DNA of 64,000 nucleotides from a virus (taxonomy: Duplodnaviria > Caudoviricetes). Both the position numbers and the translations under genes were made by a program. Below the pieces are notes generated by a model. The model had not been told where the DNA came from, did not search any database, and worked only from the letters and a program-made list of their open reading frames with translations. Positions 5,108 through 22,882 of the stretch are shown piece after piece; position 1 is the first letter of the stretch; each line of letters opens with the position of its first letter. The DNA is taken from positions 268-64,267 of the IMG/VR virus record IMGVR_UViG_3300042691_006355. One strand, written 5' to 3'.

Positions 5108-5110
5108 ATT

Positions 5111-7954: not shown

Positions 7955-8868
7955 TGAATAAAATTAAATTTCTATCAGCTCAACCAGCGATAGATTATTA
8001 CGCTTGGCAAATTGAGGTGCAAATTGTGAACCTCATGTTGACTGGATATGATCCAGAACAGATATATGTTATTGCAGGATATCAAGATGATATACCAGAG
8101 TCGTGGTTAAAACTAAAAGAAACGCATTCAAGTGTTAACTTTTTCTTTTATGAGGATACCCTTGGTGACTGTAAGTATCTTCCTGCAATACAGGCACACA
8201 TACTAAAGAAGCACTTTAAAGAACATCCAGACAATACACCGTACTTCTTTATTGATGCTGACTTTATATTCACTAGATATCTAGACTTTACACCGTACTT
8301 AAATGACGACAAGTGGTACTTCTCAGACACTATCTCATACATAGGTCATGACTACATAGTCAGCAAGGGAGAAGAGGTCTTAGAGGCTATGTGTGACGTT
8401 GTTGGAATATCTAAAGAGCTTGTCAAGTCAAACCAAGATAATAGCGGTGGAGCTCAAAAGTTGATGAAGAACCTAACTCATGAGTACTGGGAGATGGTAG
8501 AGAAGCACTCATTCGAGCTGTATGACGTCATGATGCAGCTACAGCACGTAAGAAATGACGGTAGCAATCATGGAATACAGGCATGGACGGCAAGCATGTG
8601 GGCCGAACTTTGGACAGCTTGGAAGTTAGGAATTGATGTTGTTGTTCCAAAAGATTTTGACTTCTGTTGGGCTACTTGCAACATTAAAAGATGGGACGAT
8701 GTATATTTCTTTCATAACGCTGGAGTAATGTCAGACAAGGACCGCATGTTTCACAAGGCAAAATATATGGACAAATACCCATTTAATTCAAATGAAATAG
8801 TGTCAGAACATAAGTGTTCATACAACTACTATAAGCTATTAAAATCAATAGATAGCTGTTTGGTTTAA
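7954..8868 (+). CDS. Putative GT-A glycosyltransferase, HPAT/SRGT1-like
   Basis: YYAWQ near N-terminus, FFIDADFIF (DxD), GGAQ, W-T-A-S-M-W and FHNAG motifs; ATG overlaps upstream stop (TAATG). Confidence 0.6.
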   Translation: MNKIKFLSAQPAIDYYAWQIEVQIVNLMLTGYDPEQIYVIAGYQDDIPESWLKLKETHSSVNFFFYEDTLGDCKYLPAIQAHILKKHFKEHPDNTPYFFIDADFIFTRYLDFTPYLNDDKWYFSDTISYIGHDYIVSKGEEVLEAMCDVVGISKELVKSNQDNSGGAQKLMKNLTHEYWEMVEKHSFELYDVMMQLQHVRNDGSNHGIQAWTASMWAELWTAWKLGIDVVVPKDFDFCWATCNIKRWDDVYFFHNAGVMSDKDRMFHKAKYMDKYPFNSNEIVSEHKCSYNYYKLLKSIDSCLV

Positions 8869-8874
8869 TTTCAT

Positions 8875-8882
8875 TAAATTTG
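8875..8882 (+). promoter_or_regulatory. Bacteroidetes sigmaA -7 element TAnnTTTG (copies at 9691, 41900, 43627, 45925, 50576, 52875, 59713, 63166, 63540; minus strand 24152-24159)
   Basis: TAAATTTG/TATATTTG/TATCTTTG/TAACTTTG recur in intergenic gaps a few to ~30 nt upstream of start codons. Confidence 0.7.
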
Positions 8883-8886
8883 TATT

Positions 8887-9693
8887 ATGTTAGCACCTCT
8901 TACTATATCATATTCTGATGACGTTCAAGGATGGACATCATTCTGGACGTATAAGCCAGACTATATGATATACGCATCAAACAATTTTTATACGTTCAAG
9001 AATGGTAATCTATACCTTCATAACGATGAAACTGCTACAAGAACTGTATACTATCCAAACACACCATTTGGAAATTTACCATTTTGTTCTGTCAGAACAA
9101 CGTTCAATGACGCTCCGTTAGATGTTAAACTATTTAAAACGGTATCACTAGAGAGCACGTCTCCATGGAATGTATACGTATTTACTGATCTTATATCTGG
9201 AAATATTGACGATACTTGGTTTGAGTTAAAAGAAGGTAGCTACTTTGGTCATGTAAGAAGAAACACTAACTTATCTGGAGCTTCATTAATAAACATAGGT
9301 CAACTTGACGATTCATTGTCTACTAGAGTACTTGGAGTAGGTTCAGTATTGAGCACAGGTGCTGGATACATAGAGTTCAATAGCTATCCAAGTCAATCAC
9401 TTAAGATAACAGACATAGCTTTTCCAGATCAACTATATGTTTATAATAGTGGTGGCGCATTAACATTTGTTGGTACTGTATCTAGCGTTGACAACTCATC
9501 TCCAAATCCAAAGGTATTTGTTACTGGTGGAGCAGTTCCAAACGTTGGCGATACCATACTAGCTGTTAAAAACTCAACGGCTGAGTCTTATGGAGCTAGG
9601 GGTTACTACATGGACACAACACTTACGTATAATAGTGGCGCTCCAGTTGAATTATTCGAGATAGGCTCCACAGTATTCAAAAGTTTTATGTAA
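8887..9693 (+). CDS. Tail stabilization protein, separated C-terminal part
   Basis: TISYSDDVQGWTSFWTYKPD...NNFYTFKNGNLYLHN, KLFKTVSLES, KEGSYF and ARGYY...VELF motifs, which I recall as the C-terminal part of this family. Confidence 0.7.
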   Translation: MLAPLTISYSDDVQGWTSFWTYKPDYMIYASNNFYTFKNGNLYLHNDETATRTVYYPNTPFGNLPFCSVRTTFNDAPLDVKLFKTVSLESTSPWNVYVFTDLISGNIDDTWFELKEGSYFGHVRRNTNLSGASLINIGQLDDSLSTRVLGVGSVLSTGAGYIEFNSYPSQSLKITDIAFPDQLYVYNSGGALTFVGTVSSVDNSSPNPKVFVTGGAVPNVGDTILAVKNSTAESYGARGYYMDTTLTYNSGAPVELFEIGSTVFKSFM

Positions 9694-9702
9694 ATTTGTG
9701 AT

Positions 9703-10101
9703 ATGGAAGTCCGATACCTAGTTGAAGACGATTATCATAAGTTATGCGACTGGTGGAAGGATTGGAGATGGCCAGTCATATCGAAAGACTTCTTGCCAGA
9801 GAGTGGCACAGGAGGACTTATGGTATCAAGTAATGGAGTAGATGTATGCGCTGGTTTTGTGTACATGACAAACTCAAAGGTTGCTTGGATTGAGTTCATA
9901 GTATCGAACTTCCATTACAGAGAGAAAGACAGAAAGGAAGCCATAGAGTTCTTAATAAACTCACTTTTAGAAGTTTGTAAACAAAAAGGTTTACTTTATG
10001 CATTCTCTACACTAAAGAGTCCATCACTTATAGGGATGTACGAAAACTGTGGATTTCAAAAGGGATCTACAAACACAACAGAAATGATAAAGATTTTATA
10101 A
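9703..10101 (+). CDS. GNAT acetyltransferase-like virion morphogenesis protein
   Basis: 132 aa; CAGFVYMTNSKVAWIEF and MYENCGF GNAT-like motifs; position before internal virion proteins as in podoviruses. Confidence 0.65.
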   Translation: MEVRYLVEDDYHKLCDWWKDWRWPVISKDFLPESGTGGLMVSSNGVDVCAGFVYMTNSKVAWIEFIVSNFHYREKDRKEAIEFLINSLLEVCKQKGLLYAFSTLKSPSLIGMYENCGFQKGSTNTTEMIKIL

Positions 10102-10102
10102 T

Positions 10103-10864
10103 ATGGCAGCAGTAACAGGAACAATAGTAGCTTTAGGTGGTTTGGGTGTTAGCGCAGCTCAAGCTATCGGACAAGGTAAAGCTATGAAGAAAGCTGAGGC
10201 AGCATCTTTAAAGGCAAGCCAAGATCTTAAGGCAATCAATGAGCAAAACGCATTTAAGCAGTTACAGGTTCCAACACTTGGAACTCAACTAGCACAACAA
10301 TCTCAAGCACAAAGAGAGTCTCAAGCAGTAAACATGTTGCAAGGAGCAGGTGCAGAGGGTGTGATAGGTGGAGTTGGACAATTAGCAATGGCTGGTGGAC
10401 AAACAGACTTGCAGAATGCAGCTAGACTTGATGAGTTGAAATTTGAAAGAGATGCCATGCAGGCTCAAGCTCAACAAGGAATCAATTCAAGAAAGCAGCA
10501 AAGAGATTTTGAGATAGGTTTTGGTGAAAAACAAGATGCTGAAATGAGGAGAGCTCAAGCAGAAGCTAATAGAAATGCTGCAATTGAAAGTGCTGTTGGA
10601 TTTGCAGGAAGTGCGTTAACATCTGCTAGTAAACTAGTTCCATTATATGGAAATAAAAATTTAGGTCAAAATGAATTGGCAAATACTCAGTGGACTCCAG
10701 AACAATTTGCTAAGTTTGGCAATGTTGGTCAAAAAGGTGGAGTTAATGTTGGTGATACAACAGATCTTGACTTTGAGTCAATAGGCAATATGTCAAATCA
10801 AAAGTTTAAACAATTTATGAAAGGTCTTACTCCAGAACAAAGACAAATGTTATTTAATCAATAG
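10103..10864 (+). CDS. Putative internal virion (ejection) protein
   Basis: Ala/Gly/Gln-rich helical protein with hydrophobic N-terminus; synteny. Confidence 0.55.
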   Translation: MAAVTGTIVALGGLGVSAAQAIGQGKAMKKAEAASLKASQDLKAINEQNAFKQLQVPTLGTQLAQQSQAQRESQAVNMLQGAGAEGVIGGVGQLAMAGGQTDLQNAARLDELKFERDAMQAQAQQGINSRKQQRDFEIGFGEKQDAEMRRAQAEANRNAAIESAVGFAGSALTSASKLVPLYGNKNLGQNELANTQWTPEQFAKFGNVGQKGGVNVGDTTDLDFESIGNMSNQKFKQFMKGLTPEQRQMLFNQ

Positions 10865-10867
10865 TAT

Positions 10868-12301
10868 ATGGCAACAAGTAGAAATAATTTTGGAACATAC
10901 ATACCAGTTGAAGCTGTTGACTGGGGAAAGGCTATTGGTGGTCTATATAAAACAATAGGAGACATAGGTGAGTCAAGAGAAAAAGAAAAGCAAGCTCTAG
11001 ACCAAGTAATGACAGACTCTCTTAATATAATAAATAACTCTGACATGCTTAAAACTCAGAGTTTAAATGATTATATATTAGCTGGTGCAGAGAATGGTAG
11101 GTCTACAATAAAGTCAGCAAACGATAGATTAAAGTCTGGACAGATAACCCCAAAGGAGTACAAGGCCATAATAAACAATGTAAATACATACTGGTCGTCA
11201 ATGGGTAATAATATGAAAAACTTTGATGCTACAAACCAGGAGATATTAAAGAGACAACAACCAGGTGAGGATGGATCAGCTCCTGCTGGATCAGAGTTTG
11301 AATTTTTCTTATCACAGCAACATGCTAATTTAGCTGATTTAAGAAACTCAATGTATCAGTTTAATCCAAACACTGGAGAGGGATACATGGTAAAGATTGA
11401 CCCTATTACTGGTACACCTAGCCAAGTGATAAATAGTATGTCTATAGCTGATCCATCAAACATTATGGATCAACGATTTGATTTTGAGAAAGAAATTGTC
11501 ACTGCCACTAGAGGTATGAAGCAAGCATATACAATGGAAGATGGGACTGTAACTATAAAGGATCCAATGAAGAATGCTTCAGTAGCAAATTCTGTAGCAT
11601 CTCTAATTACATCATTAACTGGAACGCCAAGGATGACTGCTCAGGCATTAGCTAGATATGGTGACTTTGATTTTTATGAGACTGAAGAACAAAGAAATCA
11701 AATTATAATGTCTGAAATTCAAAATGAAAATAAGTCTAGACAGCTTCAAGGTAAAAAACCATTGGACGAAGATCAAATAAAAACATTTACAGAAAACATG
11801 TCTGCAAAATTGATTCAAGTTACTCTTGACAATAGTAATAAGTACCAACCTATTATTACTCCAGAACAACAACAAGAAGCAGAGGAAATATTAAAAGATC
11901 TAATTGTAGCTCAATTTCCTAAGAGCCAAACTGAGGATGAGCCTAGAGCTCCAAGAAGAAGCTCTGGAAGCGGAAGAAGTAGTATGTCTGTAGATAAAAA
12001 CACATTAAATCTTGCTCAAAGAGTAAAGAGCGCATTGTCTACTGAAGATCCAAACGTAGCTGTAAAAAATTTAAATAAAATAATTGGAGGTACTGATAAA
12101 AGAGTTAAATGGACTGGAAATGAATTTGCTATAGAAGAATATAAGCCAAATCGTAAAGATAAATTTGGTAAACCAAGTCCAGGATGGGAAATCACTGTAC
12201 CTAAAATAAGTTGGGACGCATCTGCTTTTGGACCAGCATTTGGGTACAATAGTACATCAAATATAGAAAAATGGAATGACGCTATTGAATCTTTAAAATA
12301 A
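10868..12301 (+). CDS. Putative internal virion protein
   Basis: 477 aa helical protein; synteny between ejection-like gene and giant gene. Confidence 0.5.
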   Translation: MATSRNNFGTYIPVEAVDWGKAIGGLYKTIGDIGESREKEKQALDQVMTDSLNIINNSDMLKTQSLNDYILAGAENGRSTIKSANDRLKSGQITPKEYKAIINNVNTYWSSMGNNMKNFDATNQEILKRQQPGEDGSAPAGSEFEFFLSQQHANLADLRNSMYQFNPNTGEGYMVKIDPITGTPSQVINSMSIADPSNIMDQRFDFEKEIVTATRGMKQAYTMEDGTVTIKDPMKNASVANSVASLITSLTGTPRMTAQALARYGDFDFYETEEQRNQIIMSEIQNENKSRQLQGKKPLDEDQIKTFTENMSAKLIQVTLDNSNKYQPIITPEQQQEAEEILKDLIVAQFPKSQTEDEPRAPRRSSGSGRSSMSVDKNTLNLAQRVKSALSTEDPNVAVKNLNKIIGGTDKRVKWTGNEFAIEEYKPNRKDKFGKPSPGWEITVPKISWDASAFGPAFGYNSTSNIEKWNDAIESLK

Positions 12302-12304
12302 AAA

Positions 12305-15300
12305 ATGGAAGAACTAAATTCACAATCATCTTTTGATAGATTAATAGATAACACAACCAATCCACCAGAAGGTCTTCCTGATGGATTATATACGTATCCA
12401 GGTGTTGATGCGTTATATAAAAAAGAGAACGGTCAGTGGTTTAAAAAAGTTGGTGGTTCTAGCTATATTCAATTAAAAGATGGAAACGTAGCGGAAAGAA
12501 TCAAGAAGCTAGAGAGCGATGCTGTCGCTGTACCAAAAAAAAGGGAGGAAATACAGAAGTTTACGAACATACAAGACTTCGATGTAATTCAACCAGTAGA
12601 GCAATATACAGATATATTCGAAAGAAAAGAAAATCTACTAGTAAAACCAAAAAAAGAAGAGAAGCCAAAGGACATTAGAATAGTAGATAATGATGGAATA
12701 AAAACTTGGCAAGAACAAAAAGAGGTAAAGGTTCAACAAAAAATTGATCCAAAGACTGGTATTCCAACGGGACCGTCATACTTCGTTAAGTATGAAGACA
12801 TTACAGATCCTGCTAGAGTATCTAAATTAAACGAGTCATACAAGGAGGACGCATCAACAAGCAAAGACCAAAAAGTATTTACTGGTTATCCTGGAAAAGA
12901 AGGTACAGAATATATAATAAACGAAGACAATCTATGGGAAGTAAAGAGACCAGGATCAGATGATTTCTTAGTTATATCTACTCCAGAGTCTGTTACTGCA
13001 TTAAATAATTACTTTAAACAAAAAGCTGAAATATTTGATGACAAAAAGGCTGTTGAGATAAAAAACAAAAATAAAGAAACACTAGACTTAAGGTACAGAA
13101 TAAATAAGGTAGACAGAAAATTAATTCTAGGAACAGAAGAAAATGCACAAGAAGTTCTTGAAAGATTGTTTCCAGAGTATGAGTTTGAACAGTTTGGTAT
13201 AGGTACTGACAACATAAGAGTTAAAAGTAAGTCAAATGAAATAACTATATCTCTAGGGTCAAATGAATCAGACGAAAGCGAGGCATTAAGACTAAGAAGT
13301 TTCTTAAGAGAAAATGCAGGTGACATAGACGAGAGCCGATACAAGGCAATAATGCTACAAAGAAAGCTTGACGCTCAAAATAAAAAGTATTATGGTACGT
13401 TTGGATTTTCTGGTTTACAGACAGTTCTTGAAACTGGTAAACCAAAAGAATTAGGTCTTGAAGAAAAAACAGAAGCGGCAAGAGAGGAGTTCTTAATTGA
13501 CTTAAGTAGCCAATACAAAGACGCTTACTTAAGAACAAAAGACAAAAGTGAAAAAGAAAAAAACGCTGCGTTTTCTGTACTTAAACCAAAAGAAGAAGAG
13601 ATATCAATAATTAATAAATACGCTGATGATGTTTTAGCTCAGGGTAACATATTAATTAAACAAAAAAAACAAGTAGATACAGATATATCAATATTAGAAT
13701 CAAAATATAAGAATGGACTTATAAATGAAGATGAGTATAATCAATCTATTACTGATATAAAAGATAAATTAAAATTAATTAGTGATGAGTCAAATTCATT
13801 TCAAAATAATTTAAAGAACGTATCTCTATCTCAAGATCTTGTAAACAAATCAATTGCAGCAAATCTATTAATTCAAAAGAACAAGGGGTCATTTGTAGGT
13901 GGTATTGCATATAGTGCTGTAGATGGTATACTGTCAATACCTAGAATGGTAGCTATGGCAGACAAAGAGACTAAAGATAAGTGGATTGAAGAAATTGTAG
14001 GTGTAGGAACAACTGAAAGTTATGTAAACTCAGATGATAGGTGGGATATTACTAAGGCTGCATTTCAGATGTCAAGATCACTATCTGCTATGGCAGTTGG
14101 ATCTATAGGAGGTACATACGGAGCATACGCATCACTATATGCAATGTCATACTACGAGATGAAGGATGAGCTAGATCAACTTGACATATCTGGAGTATCA
14201 GAAGGAGACAAGGTGCTGATGTCTGGTGCATACGGATTAATTGGTGGAGCACTTGAAAACTTTGGTTTGAGTTATCTTGTAGGTAAATCTCCACTAAAGT
14301 CAGCACTATCTAACGCAATACTTAAAAATGCATTTAGTCAGATACCTAAGAATGCAAGCAAGGAAATGGTAGAGGCTCAAGTAATAAAGAGCACTAAAAT
14401 GATGATTGCTAAGTATGGTATTACTGCTGCTGGGTCTTCTTTACTTGAAGGTGGTGTAGAAGGAACGCAGAGACTTGCTCAAATGGGAATACAAGAGGTT
14501 TACGATGTAATGAAGGGTTCGGACTACTTTAATAATAAATCTGCTTATGAGGTGTTAGGTGACGTAGCATACGAGTCTTACATGGGATTCTTGGGTGGTG
14601 GAATTGTGGAGACAGTGCAACAATCTGGAAATGTATTAAAAGATGGATCTGCTGCGTTTAAAGATAAAAAACAATTAAATCTTTTAATTGATGCGGCAAA
14701 GACTATGGGTATAGACAAGGCTTTAGTATCAAAATTAAAGTCAGACATACTCAATGGTAATATTAAAAAAGAAGAGGCTGAAAAACAGTTAAATGCATTT
14801 AAAGAAATGCAGGGTAAGATAAAATCAATTCCTGACGACATGTCTGTTGATAATCAAGCCAAAGCACTAGACTTAATACTAGAGAGAGATAGACTTAATA
14901 AAGAGATAGAAGGGAAGGACCCTAACTTGGTTAAACCTCAGTCAGACAGGGTAACCGAGATTAATAATAGTCTGCAAGAATTATCAAAACAAAATGCCGT
15001 ACAAGAGCCAAGCACAGAGGGCGTTCTTCAACGCGAACAAGAAGGAGTTGCAGAAACAGGGGGTGAACGTGGAGGAATGGAACAAGTCGTCCAAGGGGAA
15101 GAAGTTACCAGAGAAGGTAAAACAAAAGCCGTCCAAGAAGAAGTAGTAATAGATAAGCCTGTAATTCAATCAAACTCAAAGACAGAGGTTGATAGAGTTA
15201 AGTCATTATCAAATGATGCTGAGGATGGTGCAACGTTCAACCTAGACGGAACAAAGTACGAAGGTAAAGGACTCATTGTTCCAGTAGTAAGTAAGAACAC

Positions 15301-18300
15301 TACTGCTGAAGAATTAACTCCAGAAATGATATCTGACTTTGTCGAAGAGCACAAAGATAAGATTGGAGACAACGAGACTGTAAAGGTTGGAATTTATAAA
15401 TTCCCAAACAGCAACCAGGTATCTATTGACTTAAATATACTGGCTCCAGAATCTGCTAGAGAACAAGCAATTGAGTTTGGTAAGAATGCAGACCAAGAGT
15501 CATTGTTTGACTTAAGTACATTCGAGAACGTTAAGACTGGAGGTACTGGACTTAATCCAGTACAGTTTAACAATGAGCAGTTTAGAGAGATATCTAAAGC
15601 ATTTAAGGAAGGAAGAGTTCCAGATGTATTTGCGCAACAACCCGTTACTCAAATTGAAGAAGTTACAATAACTCCAGAGACCAGTCAGACTGTTAGTGAG
15701 AGAATTAATAAGGAGACAGATACAAAAAGAAAGAAAGTATTTACTGCCGTTCAGAAAGTATTGTCTGCTATTCCTAATTCAAGAATTATATTGCACGACA
15801 ACACTGATGCATTTGTTGCTGGTGTTGCTAAGTCTGCCAATATAACAAATGACCAGGCTATATCTCAAGGTGTTCAAGATAACAGAGGTTCATATGTTAA
15901 TGGTGACATACATATAAACTTAGAAAAGGCTGGTGTGTCTACAGTATTTCACGAGGCGTTCCACGACCTGTTGGCAAAGAAAGGACTTGAGTCTGGCGCA
16001 TTGTTAGAAATGGCAAAAGGTCTTAAGTCAGTTATATCTGACAAAGCACTTAAGAAAAGACTTGATAACTTTGTATCTAACTATGAGCAGGGAGAAAGAG
16101 CTGAGGAGTATACTACTGAGCTTGGAGCCATCATGGCTGAGGCTCAGAGAGAACTATCTACTACAAAGTTCCAGCAGTTTAAAACACTAGTCAATAAGAT
16201 TGCCAAGAAGCTAGGTCTTCCTGTTGTCTTTTCTGCTGCATCAACTGCACAAGATGCCGTTGACTTTATGAACTCAATGTCTGGTAAGCTTGGAAGAGGT
16301 GAGCAGATTGAGGTTGGTGATGCTATTAAAGTTGATACAAATGAATTATCTATTAAGGCTGAAAGGATAGGTAATTTTGATGTATCATATTTTGAAGATG
16401 CTAATGATTACAAAAAATTAGTAGAAAATGGGAGTGTAGAAAACAATTATGATATAAATAAAATAGCTGGTGAAACTGTAGCTATACATCAACCAGACAA
16501 CATGTTTGTTGGAGATTTAAATTATAAAGGCAAAAATATATTTAAAGGTCTAGGAGGAGTTTTTTATACTTTAATTACTGGAAATGTTTGGGCATCTGGA
16601 TCTGAAACTTCAGCTAAAAATTTAACTAATTTAATAAATAAATCATTAAAAGAATCTACTGATGGTATTGGTAGATTAGTATTAGTTAGAGGGTCTGAGT
16701 CTAAAATGATATCATCTACAGAAGGAGTTAAGGCTGCAATGTCAATAATAGAATTGCTAGTTGATAAAGGATTAATAAATAGATCTGAATTTAGATCATC
16801 ACTAATTCGTGCTGGTAAAAAATTTAATATTGATTTTTCTGGTAAAGATTCATCAGCTGCAATACATAAAGACATTAAAGAAAAATTCATGGATGTTAAA
16901 AATTCAACATTCCAAAAAAGAGGAGATTTCTTTGATGAAGTTATAAATGATTTATCTAAAACTTCAAAAAGTGTATCAGAAAAAGAAAATATTGATAATA
17001 TACGAAAAGAATTAGGTAGCAAAAGAAAAATATCTTTTAGTAAAGATGGTATTAGAGATTCAATAGGTTATATACTAACTGAAAGATTACTTCAAGATTT
17101 ACCACCTAGTCATGTATATGCTGTAATAGAAGTTACTGAACCAGTTACATATGAAGAAAGAAAAGGTCATGATAGTTATCCTTGGGTTTTAAAGTCAAAA
17201 TCTAAACCAAAATTAAAATTATTATCCGACAGGGGTAATGCCGTTAAAGATGGCGTATTTGAAATGATTGATGGATCTGAAGTTACATTTGGTAAACTTG
17301 GACTAGCTCAAAGTGGCATTGGTATTGCAAAAATATCTAAACAAAAAACAAAAATTAATCAAATCAAAGCTCAAAAAACAGAACCTGTTGCTGGAAATAA
17401 ACTATTTAACGAGCCGTTAAAAGATGCCGAGACAATAGCAAAGTCATATATGAAGTCTGTAGGAATGGAATATGTTCCTGTAGAAAAGATAACCAAGCTA
17501 GATGAAAATATTTCAAAAAGAATATCCGATGCGTATGACAAAATGAAAAACGATCCTAACGATCCACAAGTCAAAAAAGCATACGAGGCTATGGCGAAGG
17601 AGACGTTAGATCAGTATGACCAGATACTAGAAAAAGGATATAATGTTGAGATAAATAATAACGAACCATACTCTTCTTCTGAGGACATGATAAATGATCT
17701 TAGAGACAATAAGAGAATGAAAATATTCTCTACTGAGTCTGGTTTTGGTGATGAGCCAATAACTGAAGAACAGAGAAAAGAAAATCCATTGTTAAGAGAC
17801 TCTGGTAGAAAAGATATCAACGGAGAAACTTTATTGGTTAATGATGTGTTCAGATTTGTACATGACTTTTTTGGTCATGCAAAATTAGGCAATAGCTTTG
17901 GTCCAATAGGAGAGGAAAATGCATGGAGAGTTCACTCAGAAATGTATTCACCAGAAGCTAGAAAAGCCATGACATCTGAGACAAGAGGGCAGAATAGCTG
18001 GGTTAATTTTAGCGGAGTTAATGACGCTGTATTTAAGAAAAGAGATAAGGCAAGAGAGCTTCGTAAACAAGGTAAGGTAGAAGAGGCAGACAAAATGGTC
18101 GGAGAGGTATACGAAGAGATGAAATTTGCCGATCAAAAAGTTGGACTACTTCCAGATTTTGCATTTGAGGAAGGAAGACCATCCAAAATAAAAGCACAAA
18201 TAGTAGGTAAAAATGCTAGACTATCTCAAGATGTAAGAGATAATTTACAGATAGCCAGAGAAATGGAAGATAATGGAAAATCTGATAAAGAAATAAGATT

Positions 18301-21300
18301 TACTACTGGATGGGAAAGAGGTGCTGATAAAAAATGGAGATATGAGATAGATGATAATATATTATTTGTAAAGAGTCGTCTTTTAAATGAATTTAAAAAA
18401 ATAGATCAAAATAATATCAATGAGATAAATATAAATAATGTTATATCAAATGAATTAATAAAGTTATATCCAGAAATTAAAGATGTAAAAATAATTTTTG
18501 ATCCAGCAATTAAGGTAGGAAATGCTTCATATAATTCTTCAACAAAAACAATATCAATATCATATGATCCTAATCTAAATGATTTAGCTGCCTCTCTTTT
18601 GCATGAAATTCAACATTCTATACAAGAAATAGAAGGTTTTGCTGTAGGAACTAGTATTTCGAAAATAACTGATTCATTAGGTGAAAAATTAATAAGTGAA
18701 ATAGAAAGTGGTAAAGATGCTGTAATTTACAATAAACTATATTCTATTCTTTCTGGAATAGATACATCAAACAAAATAAAATTAAAATCTGGTATGTCAA
18801 AAATACAGGCATTACTAGATAAATATTCAATAAAAAAATATGGTAAAACAGTTAATGCATCAGCTATTGATTTATATAAAAAATTTGCTGGAGAAACTGA
18901 AGCAAGAAATGTAGAGAATAGAATGAAAATGACTCCAGAAGAAAGGAGACAAACTACATTGCAAGAAACAGAAGATGTTGCTAGAGAAGACCAAATAATA
19001 TTTTTTGAAAATAAAATAAAAGCTCAAAAACAGTCAAAAGAAGATGCCATTCAAGATGCCAAGGACATACACGAAAAGTCATTCAAAAGATTTAAAGATT
19101 CAAAAAGAGCCATAGCAAATGCCGTAAATAATCTTGAAAAGTCAGACTGGTATAGAGACTCTGACGACACTCAAAGAGAGGAGGCAGTAAGAGAGATCAA
19201 AGAATTCTTTGGAGAGAAAATAAAGAAGGCTACATCTGTTGCCAAGGTAATGGGCAAGACCAAGCAGACTGCCTTTGTGTCTGACCTTGCTGCGGCAATT
19301 CGCGACCAAGTTAAGTTACAGGCACGATCATCAAGAGAGACAGCTAAAGATATCAACGATAGACGTAAGGCCCTTGGAGAGTCTATAAAGCAGGTTGTAA
19401 AGAGCTACAAAGGAAAGATAACAGAGAAACAATTGAACGCTATAAATAGAAGAATAGCAAGCGTTAATCTGTTTAACCAGGAAATGGTTGATAGAGTAGT
19501 TGACTACGTGAACAAGGTGATGAGCAATGCAGAGTACGCTGGAAAGGTAAACAATGCATTTGCAGAAAGAAGAGCGATCAGAAGAATGATGAAGTCTGGA
19601 AACATGACAGAGACTGTCGCTGTTGCCAGAGAGTTTGTTCAGATCGATCCGTCAATGGTGGATGACATAGACACGTATCTTGAGATGGCCGCTCAAATTA
19701 GAGGGGCAGTAAAATCATCAAAACGTGTAAAAGACTCAGTATCGTTAAAGCAGATTGTGAACTTTGGAGAGGCATACGAATACATCAAACCAACCCTTGA
19801 AAGACAGGAAGAGATGATGAAAAATATGAGACTTGCCGAGTATAACGATCTAGTTGACTCTGGTGTTATATCTAAAGATATGACGCTTAAAGAAATCAAT
19901 AAGATAATAAATACTATTAGAGATAATGCAGACGCAGAGATAAAGGCAGATGAAGAAGCTGCTGCTATGGATTTTCTAAAAGATAAACTAGGATACATTA
20001 AAACTTTGCTTCGTATATCTCCATTAAAGGGATACAATCCAGTAACTGGAGAACAGATTGAGATAAGCGAAAGACATTCAAATATGATTAATAATATAAT
20101 CAAATCAAATCTAGACGATTTGTCTTTAAAGCAAATGATAGAGATGGTTGATTCTTTAAATAATTTCTATGAGAATGGAGCAGTTGGAGGACTTGAAGCG
20201 GCATACGAGACAATACTAGGAGAACAAAATGCCAAGTCTTTAGAAAAGAAAGGTATTGTTGCAAGACCACTAAAGATGTACTTCAATAAAAAACTTGGTC
20301 AAATATTTGGAACCGAACTTACATCTCTTAACGAACTGTTTAACAGAATGTTTGTTGGGGCTAAGAAAGGTATAGAAGTAATGGCTAAGAGTGGTTTTTC
20401 AGATATTATTATTGGAGCCAATAAAGCTAGAAGACAGATAAAAGAAATACAGGATAGATACGTTAAAGAATTCGAAAAAACTAAAGACTTCTTCCAGATT
20501 GAAAATGTTTATGAGAGAGGTGCATTTGCGTTCTTAAGTAGAAACTTAATTGGAAATGATGCAGAAGTAAAATCAGAGTTTAATAGACGTGTAGACCTGT
20601 TACTTGAAAGTGTTGAGGCATTGAAAAATGGAACGTCCAAAGAGCAAGAAATGGCTAAAATATACGAGAAGGTATTAGATAAGATGGATGTAAAGTCTAG
20701 AGATCTTGATACAATTGCTGGTAAAATGGAGAGTTTTAATAAAGAAGCAACGCAATGGTGGATAAACGAATGGTCCAAGCACTACTCAGACCTATCAGAC
20801 GTGTCAAGATCAGTATACAACACAATACTAGGAAAGGATATAAACTATACCCCAGACAGATACAAGTCAACAACAGAAGGATCAAAATTAGGTATAGACG
20901 ATAACATAGTAGAAAGAAACTCGGCATTCTTAATCAACACAGATTCTATAACAGATACTAACGAGTCTGGTGTTATGATTGCATCAGTTAGACCTAAAGT
21001 CCTACCAAAAGGAAGGTACGTAAGCCTTGACTTTGATATGAATAATGTTGACTCACTTACAGGTGCGCTGGTAGATATAAACACTGCTGGAGCAATTAGA
21101 AGGTTAGATTCATTCTTTAAGTCTAAGTCATTTAAAGCAATTGTACCAACTATTGAAGATAGAAAGATACTTACAGAAAGAGTAAACAAGTATATCAGAA
21201 GATCTAAAAACAAACTGTCTGTTCCTAGCGATGTGTTTAGAAACATTGACAACGCACTGAATACTGTATCATCAGTAGGAACAGCGTTAGGTTTAGGTGG

Positions 21301-22882
21301 CGTTTTACAGTCGGTTAAACAGACCGTATCAGTTGCTATAAGCACAGCAATACAAACTGGAACAAGCTTTAAAATATACGCTGGTGAAGAATTTAATAAT
21401 TGGTTAAATACAACTGGAGCCTCTGTAACTAACAGAGGACAGGAGTCATTAACAGCTATTGAGAGTACCAATAAAAAATTAAAATCATTTAACGGAACAT
21501 TTGACAAGGCTATTGACACGTACAAGAACCTGACTCAGTGGCAACTAAAATTGTTTCTATCTAGACCAGATGTATTTGTTGCTAGAGCAGCGTTTAAGTC
21601 TTACTATGAGCAATACTTAAAGAGCAATGGGTATGACGTATCTAAAATAAATTGGTCAACATGGAACGAAACAATTAAAAAAGAAGGTCTCAAAGAATTG
21701 AATGATGCCGCTGTTATATATGCAGACACAATGGTTTCAAGACAGCAAAACGTATCTGATGAAAGACTGGCTGGTGAACTTCTTGCATCTGAAGACTCAG
21801 CTAGAAAATTGATTAGAAAAGCTTTGTTACCTTTTGCATCGTTCAGTATCAACCAAAGAGCTAGACTTGTTGCTGACATTAACGCACTATTCTTAAACTG
21901 GAATAACATATCTCCAGAAGATAAGGCAATTGCAATAAAATCAATTGCTGGTACAACAGCAGAGCAAGGAGTGTTCCAAATGATAAACTTTGGAATTGGT
22001 ATGGCACTTTACTCAATTGCTCAGTCAATGGCAGGTAATGATGACGATGACGAAGAATGGAAAAAAAGAATGCTTAACGCAACAAAATATCCATTGAGGT
22101 CACTTCTTGCTGATATGACATCACCTAACCCATTGGCAGATGATGCAGTAATATTTGGTGCAGATGAGTTGTTGGCTATGTTCGGATCTCCAAGCGAAGG
22201 TGAGATAAAGCAAGCAATAAATGATGAGAAAAAACTAAGAGAGATGCTAGGAAAAGAAATGACTGAATCTCAGATAAATAAATTTAAGGAGCAATACATA
22301 AAAGATAACACGTATCAACTTACTTATAACTTTACAAATAGCGAGGAAGGTAAGTATGGAATGTTCTCAATTGCTGCTGATCAGTATTTAAAATTAGCAG
22401 AAAACTCTGAAATGGCAACTAATGGTACATTTACAGATGACTACATGGGCAACAAGACAACCAAGTACCTAACAGATAAAGACAAGTCACTAGCTAAGGC
22501 TGTGTTTTATGGACTAGAGGTTCCGTATACAACTGGTGCTGGAGTTAAAGAGATGGGTCAAGTTGCAAACAAGACATACTCAATAATTAAAAAGAGAGCT
22601 CTAACTGAAAATCAATATGATACTTACAGGCAGTTTAAAAAAGAATTCAAGAGAGAGCCTCAAGATTGGGAAATTAAAATGATTAAATCAACAAATTCAT
22701 CAAATAAAGCCATAAATGAATTAGGATTCATACAATATATGGGAGGATTAAGTCCAAAACAAGGAGAAGAATACTTAAAAGTATTTAAGAAATTTGGAGA
22801 AAATGGACTAGATGAAGACGACTATAAAATGATTGTTAAAAATAAATCAGCAGACTATATAATTAAGAAAGCCTTAAAATAA
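12305..22882 (+). CDS. Giant polyvalent virion/ejection protein with zincin-like (HExxH) and LPD23-like domains
   Basis: 3525 aa; HEAFH (15950), HDFFGH...GEENAW (17861), TGWERGADKKWRYEIDD (LPD23-like), HEIQH...AGETEARNV (18602). Confidence 0.75.
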   Translation: MEELNSQSSFDRLIDNTTNPPEGLPDGLYTYPGVDALYKKENGQWFKKVGGSSYIQLKDGNVAERIKKLESDAVAVPKKREEIQKFTNIQDFDVIQPVEQYTDIFERKENLLVKPKKEEKPKDIRIVDNDGIKTWQEQKEVKVQQKIDPKTGIPTGPSYFVKYEDITDPARVSKLNESYKEDASTSKDQKVFTGYPGKEGTEYIINEDNLWEVKRPGSDDFLVISTPESVTALNNYFKQKAEIFDDKKAVEIKNKNKETLDLRYRINKVDRKLILGTEENAQEVLERLFPEYEFEQFGIGTDNIRVKSKSNEITISLGSNESDESEALRLRSFLRENAGDIDESRYKAIMLQRKLDAQNKKYYGTFGFSGLQTVLETGKPKELGLEEKTEAAREEFLIDLSSQYKDAYLRTKDKSEKEKNAAFSVLKPKEEEISIINKYADDVLAQGNILIKQKKQVDTDISILESKYKNGLINEDEYNQSITDIKDKLKLISDESNSFQNNLKNVSLSQDLVNKSIAANLLIQKNKGSFVGGIAYSAVDGILSIPRMVAMADKETKDKWIEEIVGVGTTESYVNSDDRWDITKAAFQMSRSLSAMAVGSIGGTYGAYASLYAMSYYEMKDELDQLDISGVSEGDKVLMSGAYGLIGGALENFGLSYLVGKSPLKSALSNAILKNAFSQIPKNASKEMVEAQVIKSTKMMIAKYGITAAGSSLLEGGVEGTQRLAQMGIQEVYDVMKGSDYFNNKSAYEVLGDVAYESYMGFLGGGIVETVQQSGNVLKDGSAAFKDKKQLNLLIDAAKTMGIDKALVSKLKSDILNGNIKKEEAEKQLNAFKEMQGKIKSIPDDMSVDNQAKALDLILERDRLNKEIEGKDPNLVKPQSDRVTEINNSLQELSKQNAVQEPSTEGVLQREQEGVAETGGERGGMEQVVQGEEVTREGKTKAVQEEVVIDKPVIQSNSKTEVDRVKSLSNDAEDGATFNLDGTKYEGKGLIVPVVSKNTTAEELTPEMISDFVEEHKDKIGDNETVKVGIYKFPNSNQVSIDLNILAPESAREQAIEFGKNADQESLFDLSTFENVKTGGTGLNPVQFNNEQFREISKAFKEGRVPDVFAQQPVTQIEEVTITPETSQTVSERINKETDTKRKKVFTAVQKVLSAIPNSRIILHDNTDAFVAGVAKSANITNDQAISQGVQDNRGSYVNGDIHINLEKAGVSTVFHEAFHDLLAKKGLESGALLEMAKGLKSVISDKALKKRLDNFVSNYEQGERAEEYTTELGAIMAEAQRELSTTKFQQFKTLVNKIAKKLGLPVVFSAASTAQDAVDFMNSMSGKLGRGEQIEVGDAIKVDTNELSIKAERIGNFDVSYFEDANDYKKLVENGSVENNYDINKIAGETVAIHQPDNMFVGDLNYKGKNIFKGLGGVFYTLITGNVWASGSETSAKNLTNLINKSLKESTDGIGRLVLVRGSESKMISSTEGVKAAMSIIELLVDKGLINRSEFRSSLIRAGKKFNIDFSGKDSSAAIHKDIKEKFMDVKNSTFQKRGDFFDEVINDLSKTSKSVSEKENIDNIRKELGSKRKISFSKDGIRDSIGYILTERLLQDLPPSHVYAVIEVTEPVTYEERKGHDSYPWVLKSKSKPKLKLLSDRGNAVKDGVFEMIDGSEVTFGKLGLAQSGIGIAKISKQKTKINQIKAQKTEPVAGNKLFNEPLKDAETIAKSYMKSVGMEYVPVEKITKLDENISKRISDAYDKMKNDPNDPQVKKAYEAMAKETLDQYDQILEKGYNVEINNNEPYSSSEDMINDLRDNKRMKIFSTESGFGDEPITEEQRKENPLLRDSGRKDINGETLLVNDVFRFVHDFFGHAKLGNSFGPIGEENAWRVHSEMYSPEARKAMTSETRGQNSWVNFSGVNDAVFKKRDKARELRKQGKVEEADKMVGEVYEEMKFADQKVGLLPDFAFEEGRPSKIKAQIVGKNARLSQDVRDNLQIAREMEDNGKSDKEIRFTTGWERGADKKWRYEIDDNILFVKSRLLNEFKKIDQNNINEININNVISNELIKLYPEIKDVKIIFDPAIKVGNASYNSSTKTISISYDPNLNDLAASLLHEIQHSIQEIEGFAVGTSISKITDSLGEKLISEIESGKDAVIYNKLYSILSGIDTSNKIKLKSGMSKIQALLDKYSIKKYGKTVNASAIDLYKKFAGETEARNVENRMKMTPEERRQTTLQETEDVAREDQIIFFENKIKAQKQSKEDAIQDAKDIHEKSFKRFKDSKRAIANAVNNLEKSDWYRDSDDTQREEAVREIKEFFGEKIKKATSVAKVMGKTKQTAFVSDLAAAIRDQVKLQARSSRETAKDINDRRKALGESIKQVVKSYKGKITEKQLNAINRRIASVNLFNQEMVDRVVDYVNKVMSNAEYAGKVNNAFAERRAIRRMMKSGNMTETVAVAREFVQIDPSMVDDIDTYLEMAAQIRGAVKSSKRVKDSVSLKQIVNFGEAYEYIKPTLERQEEMMKNMRLAEYNDLVDSGVISKDMTLKEINKIINTIRDNADAEIKADEEAAAMDFLKDKLGYIKTLLRISPLKGYNPVTGEQIEISERHSNMINNIIKSNLDDLSLKQMIEMVDSLNNFYENGAVGGLEAAYETILGEQNAKSLEKKGIVARPLKMYFNKKLGQIFGTELTSLNELFNRMFVGAKKGIEVMAKSGFSDIIIGANKARRQIKEIQDRYVKEFEKTKDFFQIENVYERGAFAFLSRNLIGNDAEVKSEFNRRVDLLLESVEALKNGTSKEQEMAKIYEKVLDKMDVKSRDLDTIAGKMESFNKEATQWWINEWSKHYSDLSDVSRSVYNTILGKDINYTPDRYKSTTEGSKLGIDDNIVERNSAFLINTDSITDTNESGVMIASVRPKVLPKGRYVSLDFDMNNVDSLTGALVDINTAGAIRRLDSFFKSKSFKAIVPTIEDRKILTERVNKYIRRSKNKLSVPSDVFRNIDNALNTVSSVGTALGLGGVLQSVKQTVSVAISTAIQTGTSFKIYAGEEFNNWLNTTGASVTNRGQESLTAIESTNKKLKSFNGTFDKAIDTYKNLTQWQLKLFLSRPDVFVARAAFKSYYEQYLKSNGYDVSKINWSTWNETIKKEGLKELNDAAVIYADTMVSRQQNVSDERLAGELLASEDSARKLIRKALLPFASFSINQRARLVADINALFLNWNNISPEDKAIAIKSIAGTTAEQGVFQMINFGIGMALYSIAQSMAGNDDDDEEWKKRMLNATKYPLRSLLADMTSPNPLADDAVIFGADELLAMFGSPSEGEIKQAINDEKKLREMLGKEMTESQINKFKEQYIKDNTYQLTYNFTNSEEGKYGMFSIAADQYLKLAENSEMATNGTFTDDYMGNKTTKYLTDKDKSLAKAVFYGLEVPYTTGAGVKEMGQVANKTYSIIKKRALTENQYDTYRQFKKEFKREPQDWEIKMIKSTNSSNKAINELGFIQYMGGLSPKQGEEYLKVFKKFGENGLDEDDYKMIVKNKSADYIIKKALK
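14994..15146 (+). CDS. Nested 50-aa basic protein in +1 frame of the giant gene
   Basis: MPYKSQAQRAFFNANKKELQKQGVNVEEWNKSSKGKKLPEKVKQKPSKKK*; A-rich leader AAAACAAA-ATG; resembles small phage proteins starting MPF/YKSxAQR. Confidence 0.65.
   Translation: MPYKSQAQRAFFNANKKELQKQGVNVEEWNKSSKGKKLPEKVKQKPSKKK

What the first reader, a model, noticed from the sequence alone, without database searches (positions are those of the whole stretch)
14994..15146. Complete 50-aa gene nested in the +1 frame of the 3525-aa giant gene
Seen: AAAACAAA-ATG opens MPYKSQAQRAFFNANKKELQKQGVNVEEWNKSSKGKKLPEKVKQKPSKKK-TAG. The host frame here reads as a low-complexity acidic linker (NAVQEPSTEGVLQREQEGVAETGGERGG) with codons atypical for this gene. 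The nested product resembles free-standing small basic phage proteins beginning MPF/YKSxAQR (recalled, not searched). Inference: the giant protein's linker is overprinted on a functional small gene, possibly a DNA-binding core protein co-expressed with the ejection protein. Standard annotation would miss it.
Basis: partly seen in the sequence, partly recalled or inferred. Interest (0 to 1): 0.75.

Follow-up and report, generated by a model that had tools for sequence, protein, structure and literature searches.

The report
Conserved small gene inside giant gene
A 50-codon gene for a widespread, still unnamed small basic phage protein sits complete, in a shifted reading frame, inside a 3525-codon virion-type giant gene, and comparison with many other phages shows that both readings of this DNA are kept by selection.

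Summary
The ORF is real and exactly as described (14994..15146, +1 frame of the giant ORF 12305..22882). Its length alone is not unusual: 381 of 1000 synonymous shuffles of the giant gene give an alternative-frame ORF of at least 50 aa. Homology is what makes it a gene. A profile search found 4603 clusters of 23-74 aa, none with a function name. In the window plus 29 of 80 fetched viral contigs, and in 6 of 46 MAG contigs, the gene is fully embedded in a 1000-4000-aa ORF, always in the same relative frame. Elsewhere it is free-standing, 3-12 nt behind a giant gene, or fused in frame to the N-terminus of larger proteins. Embedded copies evolve under purifying selection in the small frame (dN/dS 0.14, as in free copies). 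They have almost no T at their third codon positions (0.7% against 22%), which keeps the giant frame open and turns it into an acidic, glycine-rich linker. Host-appropriate start signals precede the embedded ATG. A diverged 42-aa relative is embedded, unannotated, at the matching place in the giant 'structural protein' gene of 68 cultured Flavobacterium Elemovirus records. The architecture parallels lambda Rz/Rz1. Function is unknown, and expression was not tested.

The parts
12305..22882 (+). Giant gene, 3525 aa, last gene of a + strand block of virion-type genes. It is a mosaic polyvalent-type protein.
   Evidence: ORF. Pfam LPD23 E=1.2e-13 at residues 1977-2019; DUF6782 metallopeptidase only E=0.022, below its cut-off. 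phrog_3170 at residues 1737-1904. Upstream genes hit 'virion structural protein' PHROGs. Residues 894-1398 match the 3694-aa 'structural protein' of Flavobacterium Elemovirus phages at 26% identity.
14994..15146 (+). Embedded small gene, 50 aa plus stop, in the +1 frame of the giant gene. It is a member of a large unnamed family of small basic phage proteins. The model shows three short helices followed by a lysine-rich tail.
   Evidence: Family. AlphaFold2 model: mean pLDDT 85.2, helices at 6-14, 16-21 and 26-33. Purifying selection in this frame in embedded copies.
14974..14993 (+). A-rich 20 bases before the embedded ATG, inferred to be the translation initiation region. Bacteroidota-type starts use A-rich leaders rather than Shine-Dalgarno sites; that is established knowledge, not tested here.
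   Evidence: A fraction is 0.60 here against 0.40 in the gene, and 0.55-0.75 in all 27 AT-rich embedded copies. The stretch is unpaired in the predicted fold. Three embedded copies (L030 at 42% G+C; L043 and L096 at 65-67%) carry GAGGAGG, AAGGAGG or AGGAG at this place instead.
14993..15148 (+). Giant-frame reading of the same DNA: residues 897-948, an acidic, Gly/Gln/Val-rich low-complexity linker between variable modules.
   Evidence: Alignment A3 of 22 embedded loci has only 2 invariant columns. Composition in embedded copies is E 19% and G 16%, with almost no C/F/Y/W.
15144..15152 (+). Three consecutive stop codons (TAG TAA TAG) in the small gene's frame, read as V-V-I-D region codons in the giant frame.

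Best explanation
The 153 bases encode two proteins. The older and constrained reading is the small one. It is a complete gene with its own start and stop for a 50-aa protein: a conserved three-helix core with a lysine-rich tail. The protein belongs to a very large, unnamed phage family. The gene lies inside a giant polyvalent-type late gene. The giant frame runs straight through it and yields an acidic, glycine-rich flexible linker. That linker's sequence is mostly a by-product of the small gene's codons. Selection keeps the giant frame open, and free of Cys and aromatic residues, by banning T from the small gene's third codon positions. The small protein is most likely made by internal initiation on the giant gene's late mRNA, from an A-rich leader (Shine-Dalgarno in relatives that carry one), as Rz1 is made inside lambda Rz. 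Shown: homology, embedding in one constant frame in many diverged phages, purifying selection on the small frame, and selection on openness and composition of the giant frame. Inferred: internal initiation and co-expression. Guess (about 0.25): the small basic protein acts together with the giant virion protein or the packaged DNA as a packaging or ejection accessory. The guess rests on its position: inside or 3-12 nt behind giant genes, or otherwise beside terminase, portal or virion genes.
For: Family: 142 small homologues of the single sequence, E down to 3e-18; 4603 clusters at E<=0.001 among 5511 candidates with profile A2; 14 invariant columns among 49 sequences. Embedding: the window plus 29 of 80 IMG/VR loci and 6 of 46 MAG loci lie in ORFs of 1044-4057 aa, always with the giant frame equal to the small frame +2, and 44 to 1812 residues from the giant N-terminus. 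Selection on the small frame: NG86 dN/dS is 0.137 in embedded copies (278 of 351 pairs usable) against 0.122 in free copies (80 of 861 pairs usable, the rest saturated). The same bases read in the giant frame give 2.36. Pairwise diversity at codon positions 1/2/3 is 0.242/0.129/0.341. Selection on the giant frame: 0 stops in 27 of 27 unique embedded copies against 1-14 stops in 42 of 42 unique free copies. T-first codons in that frame number 8 of 1080 embedded against 363 of 1680 free; non-stop T-first codons are 0.7% against 9.1%. Starts: A-rich leaders in 27 AT-rich embedded copies, and SD motifs in L030, L043 and L096. Linkage to giant genes: 11 free copies start 3-12 nt after the stop of an 815-3260-aa ORF. 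The giants are mosaic, and some share only this island with the window's giant. Metagenome contigs of other phages match only 14991-15109 and then diverge. Second lineage: a 42-aa embedded ORF at the homologous place in Elemovirus giants, present in 68 records plus MW202828. hhalign to the family gives probability 63%, E 7e-5 over 40 columns. Analogue: spanin genes occur as embedded, overlapped and separated pairs, with Rz1 in the +1 frame of Rz, and are often left unannotated (PMC6139136, passages read).
Against: There is no direct evidence of translation of the embedded ORF, such as Ribo-seq or proteomics. The RNA-library contigs that touch the region cannot separate it from the giant mRNA or from DNA carry-over. 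ORF length alone is ordinary. The 80 viral loci are the best of 353 hits ranked by likeness to an embedded query, so 29 of 80 overstates the embedded share; the MAG set gives 6 of 46. Embedded copies are related by descent, so counts of loci are not independent events. The 42-column tree is weak (3 of 62 inner branches well supported). SD 5-mers are common in the giant ORFs of L030 and L043 (8-9 per kb), so two hits are only mildly unexpected. Function is unsupported: no Pfam, NCBIfam, PADLOC, PDB or Foldseek relative of known function. PHROGs gave only weak matches for 5 of 37 members each (phrog_30301 at E 0.006; a 'virion structural protein' family at E 0.18).
Confidence: 0.8

Rival explanations
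1. The embedded copy is a silent relic. The island is conserved for another reason: as a nucleotide-level recombination joint between modules of mosaic giant genes, or because the giant's linker peptide itself is selected. On this reading only free-standing copies make protein.
For: The giants are mosaic and some share only this island. Contigs of other phages in the same samples match only 14991-15109. No expression data exist. The giant frame shows compositional selection.
Against: The substitution pattern is that of a protein read in the small frame: position 2 varies least and position 3 most, with dN/dS 0.137, the same as free copies. In the giant frame the third position is the least variable and dN/dS is 2.36. 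The ATG and full length are kept in 30 of 30 embedded copies despite a mean dS of 1.26. Start signals fit the G+C content and Shine-Dalgarno usage of each genome. The giant-frame peptide has only 2 invariant columns.
Confidence: 0.08
2. The small reading is not a separate protein but is joined to the giant by programmed frameshifting. Either a +1 shift adds it to the N-terminal 896 residues, or a -1 shift at its end puts it at the head of the C-terminal 2577 residues, like the in-frame N-terminal fusions seen elsewhere.
For: In-frame forms exist with this module at the N-terminus of 185-1012-aa proteins. The leader and the tail are A-rich.
Against: In many embedded loci the small frame is closed by a stop directly before or within a few codons of the ATG; for example the frame opens only at ATG-3 in L002, L003, L004, L014 and L042. 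That leaves no room for a +1 shift site. The window's tail has no X XXY YYZ heptamer in the small frame (read). T-avoidance covers the whole small ORF, so the giant frame is read through from upstream. Free-standing copies end in the same way with a stop.
Confidence: 0.04
3. The 3525-aa ORF is not one gene. Two large genes flank a free small gene, and the through-frame is open only because the interval is T-poor.
For: The interval has 11.8% T. In five viral loci the large ORF opens only 44-55 codons upstream of the small gene. Adjacent arrangements, with a giant stop and then the small gene, exist.
Against: There is no stop in the giant frame anywhere in 27 of 27 unique embedded copies, while all 42 free copies have 1-14. 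T at third positions is 0.7% against about 22% despite saturated synonymous divergence, which is ongoing selection and not chance. The short-upstream loci begin with a Met and a small N-terminal domain before the linker. The Elemovirus homologue is annotated as one 3694-aa CDS.
Confidence: 0.04

Closest known systems
Lambda Rz/Rz1 two-component spanin genes (embedded architecture)
   Same: A complete small gene lies in the +1 frame inside a larger gene on the same strand. The same gene pair also occurs in non-embedded arrangements in other phages. Gene callers usually leave the embedded gene unannotated (PMC6139136, passages read).
   Different: The proteins are unrelated. The small protein here has no Cys, hence no lipobox, and is not in a lysis cassette. 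The host gene is a 3525-aa mosaic late gene, and the overlap falls in an inter-module linker. Here the embedded gene is the conserved, structured reading and the host-frame segment is the low-complexity one.
Polyvalent proteins of phages and conjugative elements (Iyer et al. 2017, PMC5512222)
   Same: The giant carries a polyvalent-protein-associated domain (LPD23), lies next to virion genes and is highly mosaic. The paper predicts that such proteins are packaged and injected (abstract and passages read).
   Different: In the main text I found no mention of an overlapping or out-of-frame gene within them: 'overlapping' 0 hits, 'frameshift' 0, and 'nested' only in a structural sense. Its supplements could not be seen.
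Classical viral overprinting (for example phiX174 B in A and E in D; recalled, plus reviews PMC8227390 and PMC3494269 seen as search listing and abstract only)
   Same: Two proteins are made from one stretch of DNA in different frames, with asymmetric constraint.
   Different: Here the polarity appears reversed. The short embedded gene has the wide distribution and exists free-standing, while the host-frame segment looks derived.
Pfam DUF3008 (PF11450)
   Same: The nearest Pfam-bearing cluster in the language-model search carries it, at score 0.88 with the family on 15% of members. From memory, it has a similar start motif and a similar ...KG.LPEK end.
   Different: hmmscan finds DUF3008 in 0 of 37 family members at E<=10. 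It is itself of unknown function.

Membership tests
Unnamed small phage protein family (consensus as printed) | N-terminal MP[YF]KSxAQ, FFNAN-type helix, GV[ND]VxEW, SKGKKLP, basic tail, 45-70 aa | tested here: met
   P0001 has all invariant columns: M1 P2 S5 Q8 F12 G23 V24 V26 E28 S33 G35 P39. Profile score 98 bits, E 7e-23.
Out-of-frame embedded gene pair (Rz/Rz1-type architecture) | Complete ORF with its own start and stop inside a longer ORF, same strand, different frame | tested here: met
   the same relative frame in 30 of 30 embedded viral copies and 6 MAG copies.
Out-of-frame embedded gene pair (Rz/Rz1-type architecture) | Both frames maintained by selection | tested here: met
   Small frame dN/dS 0.137. 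Giant frame has 0 stops in 27 of 27 copies, and T-first codons number 8 of 1080 against 363 of 1680.
Out-of-frame embedded gene pair (Rz/Rz1-type architecture) | Independent initiation, with both products made | not testable with these tools
   Only indirect: A-rich or SD leaders. The RNA contigs are uninformative.
o-spanin (Rz1-like) | Lipoprotein signal with lipobox Cys, in a lysis cassette | tested here: not met
   P0001 has no Cys. Its neighbours are virion and DNA-metabolism genes.
Pfam DUF3008 | Match to the family HMM | tested here: not met
   0 of 37 members at E<=10; only a 0.88 language-model lead.
Polyvalent protein (the giant gene) | Large multidomain protein carrying polyvalent-associated domains | tested here: met
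   LPD23 at 51.1 bits against a cut-off of 27.
Polyvalent protein (the giant gene) | Embedded processing peptidase | tested here: inconclusive
   DUF6782 at 14.4 bits, below the cut-off of 27. HExxH-like strings are visible in the translation but were not tested.
Polyvalent protein (the giant gene) | Late/virion gene neighbourhood; packaged in the virion | tested here: inconclusive
   Neighbourhood met, and the homologue is annotated 'structural protein'. Packaging itself is not testable here, and the basis of that annotation was not found in PMC7077304.
Programmed ribosomal frameshift site | Slippery heptamer in an open overlap of the two frames | tested here: not met
   The small frame is closed up to or near the ATG in many loci. 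There is no heptamer in the window's tail.
Rfam RNA families | Covariance-model match or unusually stable fold | tested here: not met
   0 matches at E<=1 in 14500-15700; fold z-score +0.91.

The most novel reading that the evidence does not exclude
The small basic protein is a dedicated partner of giant polyvalent virion proteins, acting as a packaging adaptor, chaperone or co-injected DNA-binding factor. Its conserved 150-base gene also serves as a portable joint at which phages recombine halves of giant genes. Embedding, with the giant's acidic linker and the basic partner written on the same bases, would then tie partner and joint together through at least three embed or release events across phages of 30-67% G+C.
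Probability: 0.2. Interest if true: 0.8.

Novelty: new member of a known kind. Interest (0 to 1): 0.62.

Why it matters
Embedded out-of-frame genes are known in phages, but few are backed by comparative evidence this clean. Here the same gene exists free, adjacent, fused and embedded, so the cost of dual coding can be read directly. The small frame keeps dN/dS near 0.14, while the host frame survives by excluding one base from one codon position and becomes an acidic linker. The family is very large (4603 clusters at 90% identity) and absent from Pfam, PHROGs and NCBIfam. Neither member I queried matched any of the 50,697 GenBank phage records beyond one chance-level hit. Its diverged Elemovirus relative lies inside CDSs of 68 cultured isolates that were annotated as one gene. 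This gives an unannotated gene in a culturable system where it can be tested. It also shows that giant 'single' phage genes can hide conserved small genes that gene callers forbid by design.

Tried and rejected
Chance ORF: rejected on homology, although length alone is ordinary.

RNA element: no Rfam match, no stable fold, and promoter-like sites are not above shuffles (3 found against a mean of 2.4); no terminator.

Function by sequence: Pfam, PHROGs, NCBIfam and PADLOC found nothing for P0001. The two NCBIfam rows (UXX-star, E 0.037 and 0.1, far below their cut-offs) are noise. Family-wide scans gave only weak PHROG rows and no Pfam family in more than 3 of 37 members. A PDB profile search had a best E of 0.53.

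Function by fold: Foldseek against PDB had a best E of 9.8. Against BFVD the best E was 0.083, to uncharacterised viral proteins; 0 hits at E<=0.001.

Binding of the small protein to the giant's overlapping linker: complex prediction gave no verdict (score 0.00). This is evidence neither for nor against.

Cultured carriers of the exact family: tblastn of P0001 and P0017 against 50,697 phage records gave one chance-level hit (E=9, Phage C75C1, between annotated genes) and none.

DNA-level relatives among cultured phages: none.

Literature: five full-text searches found no paper on this family or on a gene embedded in polyvalent or giant phage genes. The motif-string hits were coincidences.

A single origin of embedding: not supported. 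Well-supported branches force at least 3 changes of state, but the tree has only 42 columns.

RNA evidence: two 151-nt contigs of one RNA library lie on 15094-15244 and 15334-15484; they are not usable as proof of transcription.

Parts of the laid stretch without cover, and small-share runs, were not interpreted.

Supplements of papers were closed and may hold domain lists (PMC5512222) or annotation bases (PMC7077304) that bear on the giant gene.
Full report
OBSERVATION. The window is a complete 64,267-base virus record with direct terminal repeats. Its 1354-aa virion protein is 32-39% identical to proteins of Cellulophaga phages phi38:1 and phi40:1 and of Flavobacterium Elemovirus podophages. 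It recurs in contigs of runs labelled mostly as freshwater or lake metagenomes. It lies in the +1 frame of the 3525-aa ORF 12305..22882. The interval is T-poor (0.118 against 0.257) and purine-rich. Length alone proves nothing. In 381 of 1000 synonymous-codon shuffles of the giant gene an alternative-frame ATG ORF of at least 50 aa appears. A second, arginine-rich ORF of 49 aa exists at 20755..20904.

THE SMALL PROTEIN IS A MEMBER OF A LARGE FAMILY. A single-sequence search found 142 proteins of 45-82 aa, with E down to 3e-18 in a database of 5.8 billion. A 42-column profile of 49 members found 4603 clusters at E<=0.001 among 5511 candidates. In the 120 listed, no source gives a name beyond 'hypothetical protein' and none has a Pfam domain. 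The alignment shows a strongly conserved core and a variable basic tail. Pfam, PHROGs, NCBIfam and PADLOC do not know it. AlphaFold2 on the alignment gives a confident small three-helix model (pLDDT 85.2). That model has no significant structural neighbour, and a PDB profile search found nothing. The language-model atlas places it among unnamed viral clusters (0.95). DUF3008 appears only as a 0.88 lead, which hmmscan does not confirm (0 of 37). Neither of two members queried (P0001, P0017) found a convincing match in 50,697 GenBank phage records. All 46 hits in species-representative genomes are MAG contigs.

THE EMBEDDING IS RECURRENT AND ALWAYS IN ONE FRAME. Of 353 viral-contig relatives, the best 80 were fetched. 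In 29 of them, as in the window, the small ORF lies wholly inside an ORF of 1044-4057 aa. The giant frame always equals the small frame +2, and the small gene sits 44 to 1812 residues from the giant's N-terminus. This share is inflated because loci were ranked by likeness to an embedded query. The MAG set gives 6 of 46, again all in the same frame. A seventh flagged locus, L126, is a G+C-rich in-frame fusion and was dropped.

The 51 other viral loci fall into three groups.
- Eleven copies start 3-12 nt after the stop of an 815-3260-aa ORF. Two of those giants share the window giant's 1708-1967 region.
- Six copies are in-frame N-terminal fusions to 214-557-aa proteins. Further fusions of 118-1012 aa exist in the protein collection, some with DUF6321, DUF5661 or a weak Zn-peptidase match.
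- The remaining 34 are free copies among other genes. Where neighbours were scanned, they lie directly upstream of terminase and portal, next to a virion protein, or next to a DNA polymerase.

The giant proteins are mosaics. Several share with the window's giant nothing but the island itself. Metagenome contigs of other phages match only 14991-15109 and diverge on both sides.

BOTH FRAMES ARE UNDER SELECTION. The analysis used the first 40 codons, 27 unique embedded copies and 42 unique free copies. Amino-acid diversity is alike (0.26 and 0.27). Diversity at the small frame's codon positions 1/2/3 is 0.242/0.129/0.341 in embedded copies and 0.257/0.165/0.574 in free copies. Nei-Gojobori dN/dS is 0.137 for embedded copies (278 of 351 pairs usable) and 0.122 for free copies (80 of 861 pairs; the rest were saturated). 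The same bases read in the giant frame give 2.36, the signature of constraint lying in the other frame. The giant frame has no stop in any of the 27 embedded copies and 1-14 stops in all 42 free copies.

The means of keeping it open is simple. The small gene's third position is the giant's first. T there is 8 of 1080 in embedded copies against 363 of 1680 in free ones, and G rises to 52%. The purge goes beyond stop avoidance. Harmless T-first codons (Cys, Phe, Tyr, Trp, Ser, Leu) fall from 9.1% to 0.7%, and the giant reading becomes 19% Glu and 16% Gly. With a mean dS of 1.26 between embedded copies, this bias must be actively maintained. The giant-frame peptide itself has only 2 invariant columns in 22 loci.

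START SIGNALS. In all 27 AT-rich embedded copies the 20 bases before the ATG are 55-75% A, against 35-42% in the gene. Three embedded copies (L030 at 42% G+C; L043 and L096 at 65-67%) carry GAGGAGG, AAGGAGG or AGGAG there. L034 has lost the canonical ATG but has one 11 codons upstream behind a purine-rich stretch. The window's leader is unpaired in the predicted fold. In many loci the small frame is closed right up to the ATG. That argues against a frameshift fusion and for internal initiation.

A SECOND, CULTURED LINEAGE. The window giant's residues 894-1398 match the 3694-aa 'structural protein' of Flavobacterium phage vB_FspP_elemoA_7-9A. At the aligned place that gene holds its own +1-frame ORF of 42 aa. 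It has the same N-terminal motif, a conserved Trp, the LP.KVKK end and two Cys. A profile comparison with the family gives probability 63%, E 7e-5. It is present under the annotated CDS in 68 Elemovirus records and, 86% identical over the matched part and intact at 43 aa, in MW202828, where the flank is more diverged. None of the annotated rows I saw lists it as a gene.

HISTORY. On a weak 42-column tree of 65 unique sequences the embedded state is clustered: 10 changes against 21.0 in shuffles, with 0 of 500 shuffles as low. It is not one clade, because well-supported branches force at least 3 changes. A free copy carries 1-14 stops in the giant-type frame. Turning an embedded copy into an adjacent one therefore needs one nonsense mutation, whereas the reverse needs many synonymous changes or a start in a T3-poor, G+C-rich genome. 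The direction is not settled.

WHAT IT WORKS LIKE. The architecture is that of lambda Rz/Rz1, and the parallel extends to alternative arrangements of the same pair and to routine non-annotation (PMC6139136). It is not a spanin: it has no Cys and no lysis context. The giant fits the polyvalent-protein class, which is predicted to be packaged and injected (PMC5512222, abstract and passages; LPD23). That paper's main text does not mention an overlapping gene.

Function of the small protein remains unknown. My committed guess, at about 0.25, is a virion- or packaging-associated accessory acting with the giant protein or the DNA. It rests only on gene position and the basic tail. A complex prediction with the overlapping linker gave no verdict.

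VERDICT. The finding is a real, conserved, unannotated embedded gene with clean comparative evidence of dual coding. It is a new member of a known kind of arrangement, belongs to a large uncharacterised family, and can be tested in a cultured phage.

Noticed in passing
L083 6011-6139 (MT497017.1, Flavobacterium phage vB_FspP_elemoA_7-9A); L130 301-432 (MW202828.1): An unannotated 42/43-aa ORF is embedded in the +1 frame of the giant 'structural protein' CDS. It is a diverged, two-Cys relative of the window's small gene and is present in 68 Elemovirus records. In MW202828 the host CDS is labelled 'reticulocyte binding/rhoptry protein', evidently an automatic misnomer.
   Followed up: yes
L083, giant CDS 2350-13434, translation: The giant-frame motif that marks the start of the embedded gene (..QEDAVQKQ..) occurs twice about 135 residues apart. 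The first occurrence may be a decayed second copy of the island.
   Followed up: no
window 20755-20904 (+): A second alternative-frame ATG ORF of 49 aa (P0135) lies inside the giant gene. It is arginine/lysine-rich and looks like chance. Only translated, not searched.
   Followed up: partly
P0122, L036 10001-11185, L071 10001-10642: Larger proteins, some from contigs of 165-226 kb, string this module together in frame with other small conserved phage modules: DUF5661 with a CW.GY..PGK-type motif, and DUF6321. Gly/Ala-rich hydrophobic stretches lie between them, which suggests a shared but unknown functional class.
   Followed up: partly
L007-L011, L015, L025, L039, L062: Free-standing copies sit at the head of the packaging module. 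In L007 the order is small gene, a 115-aa ORF, then ORFs that hit terminase large subunit and portal PHROGs; in L062 a terminase-large-subunit ORF follows. The other loci listed show the same ORF sizes (387 and about 480 aa) but were not scanned.
   Followed up: partly
L012, L017, L031, L033, L077, L080 downstream of the small gene: Adjacent-type loci are followed by two or three tandem ORFs of about 170-185 aa each, possibly paralogues. Not examined.
   Followed up: no
L084-L129: All 46 hits among 185,579 species-representative genomes are MAG contigs and none is from an isolate. The bin labels span Bacteroidota, Acidobacteriota and others, and are unreliable as hosts. L109 and L128 carry truncated copies (7 and 18 aa).
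   Followed up: partly
window 14991-15109, runs X3, X5, X6: Within single metagenomes several different phages share just this island. A 1424-base contig at depth 42 matches only these 119 bases, with 17 differences.
   Followed up: partly
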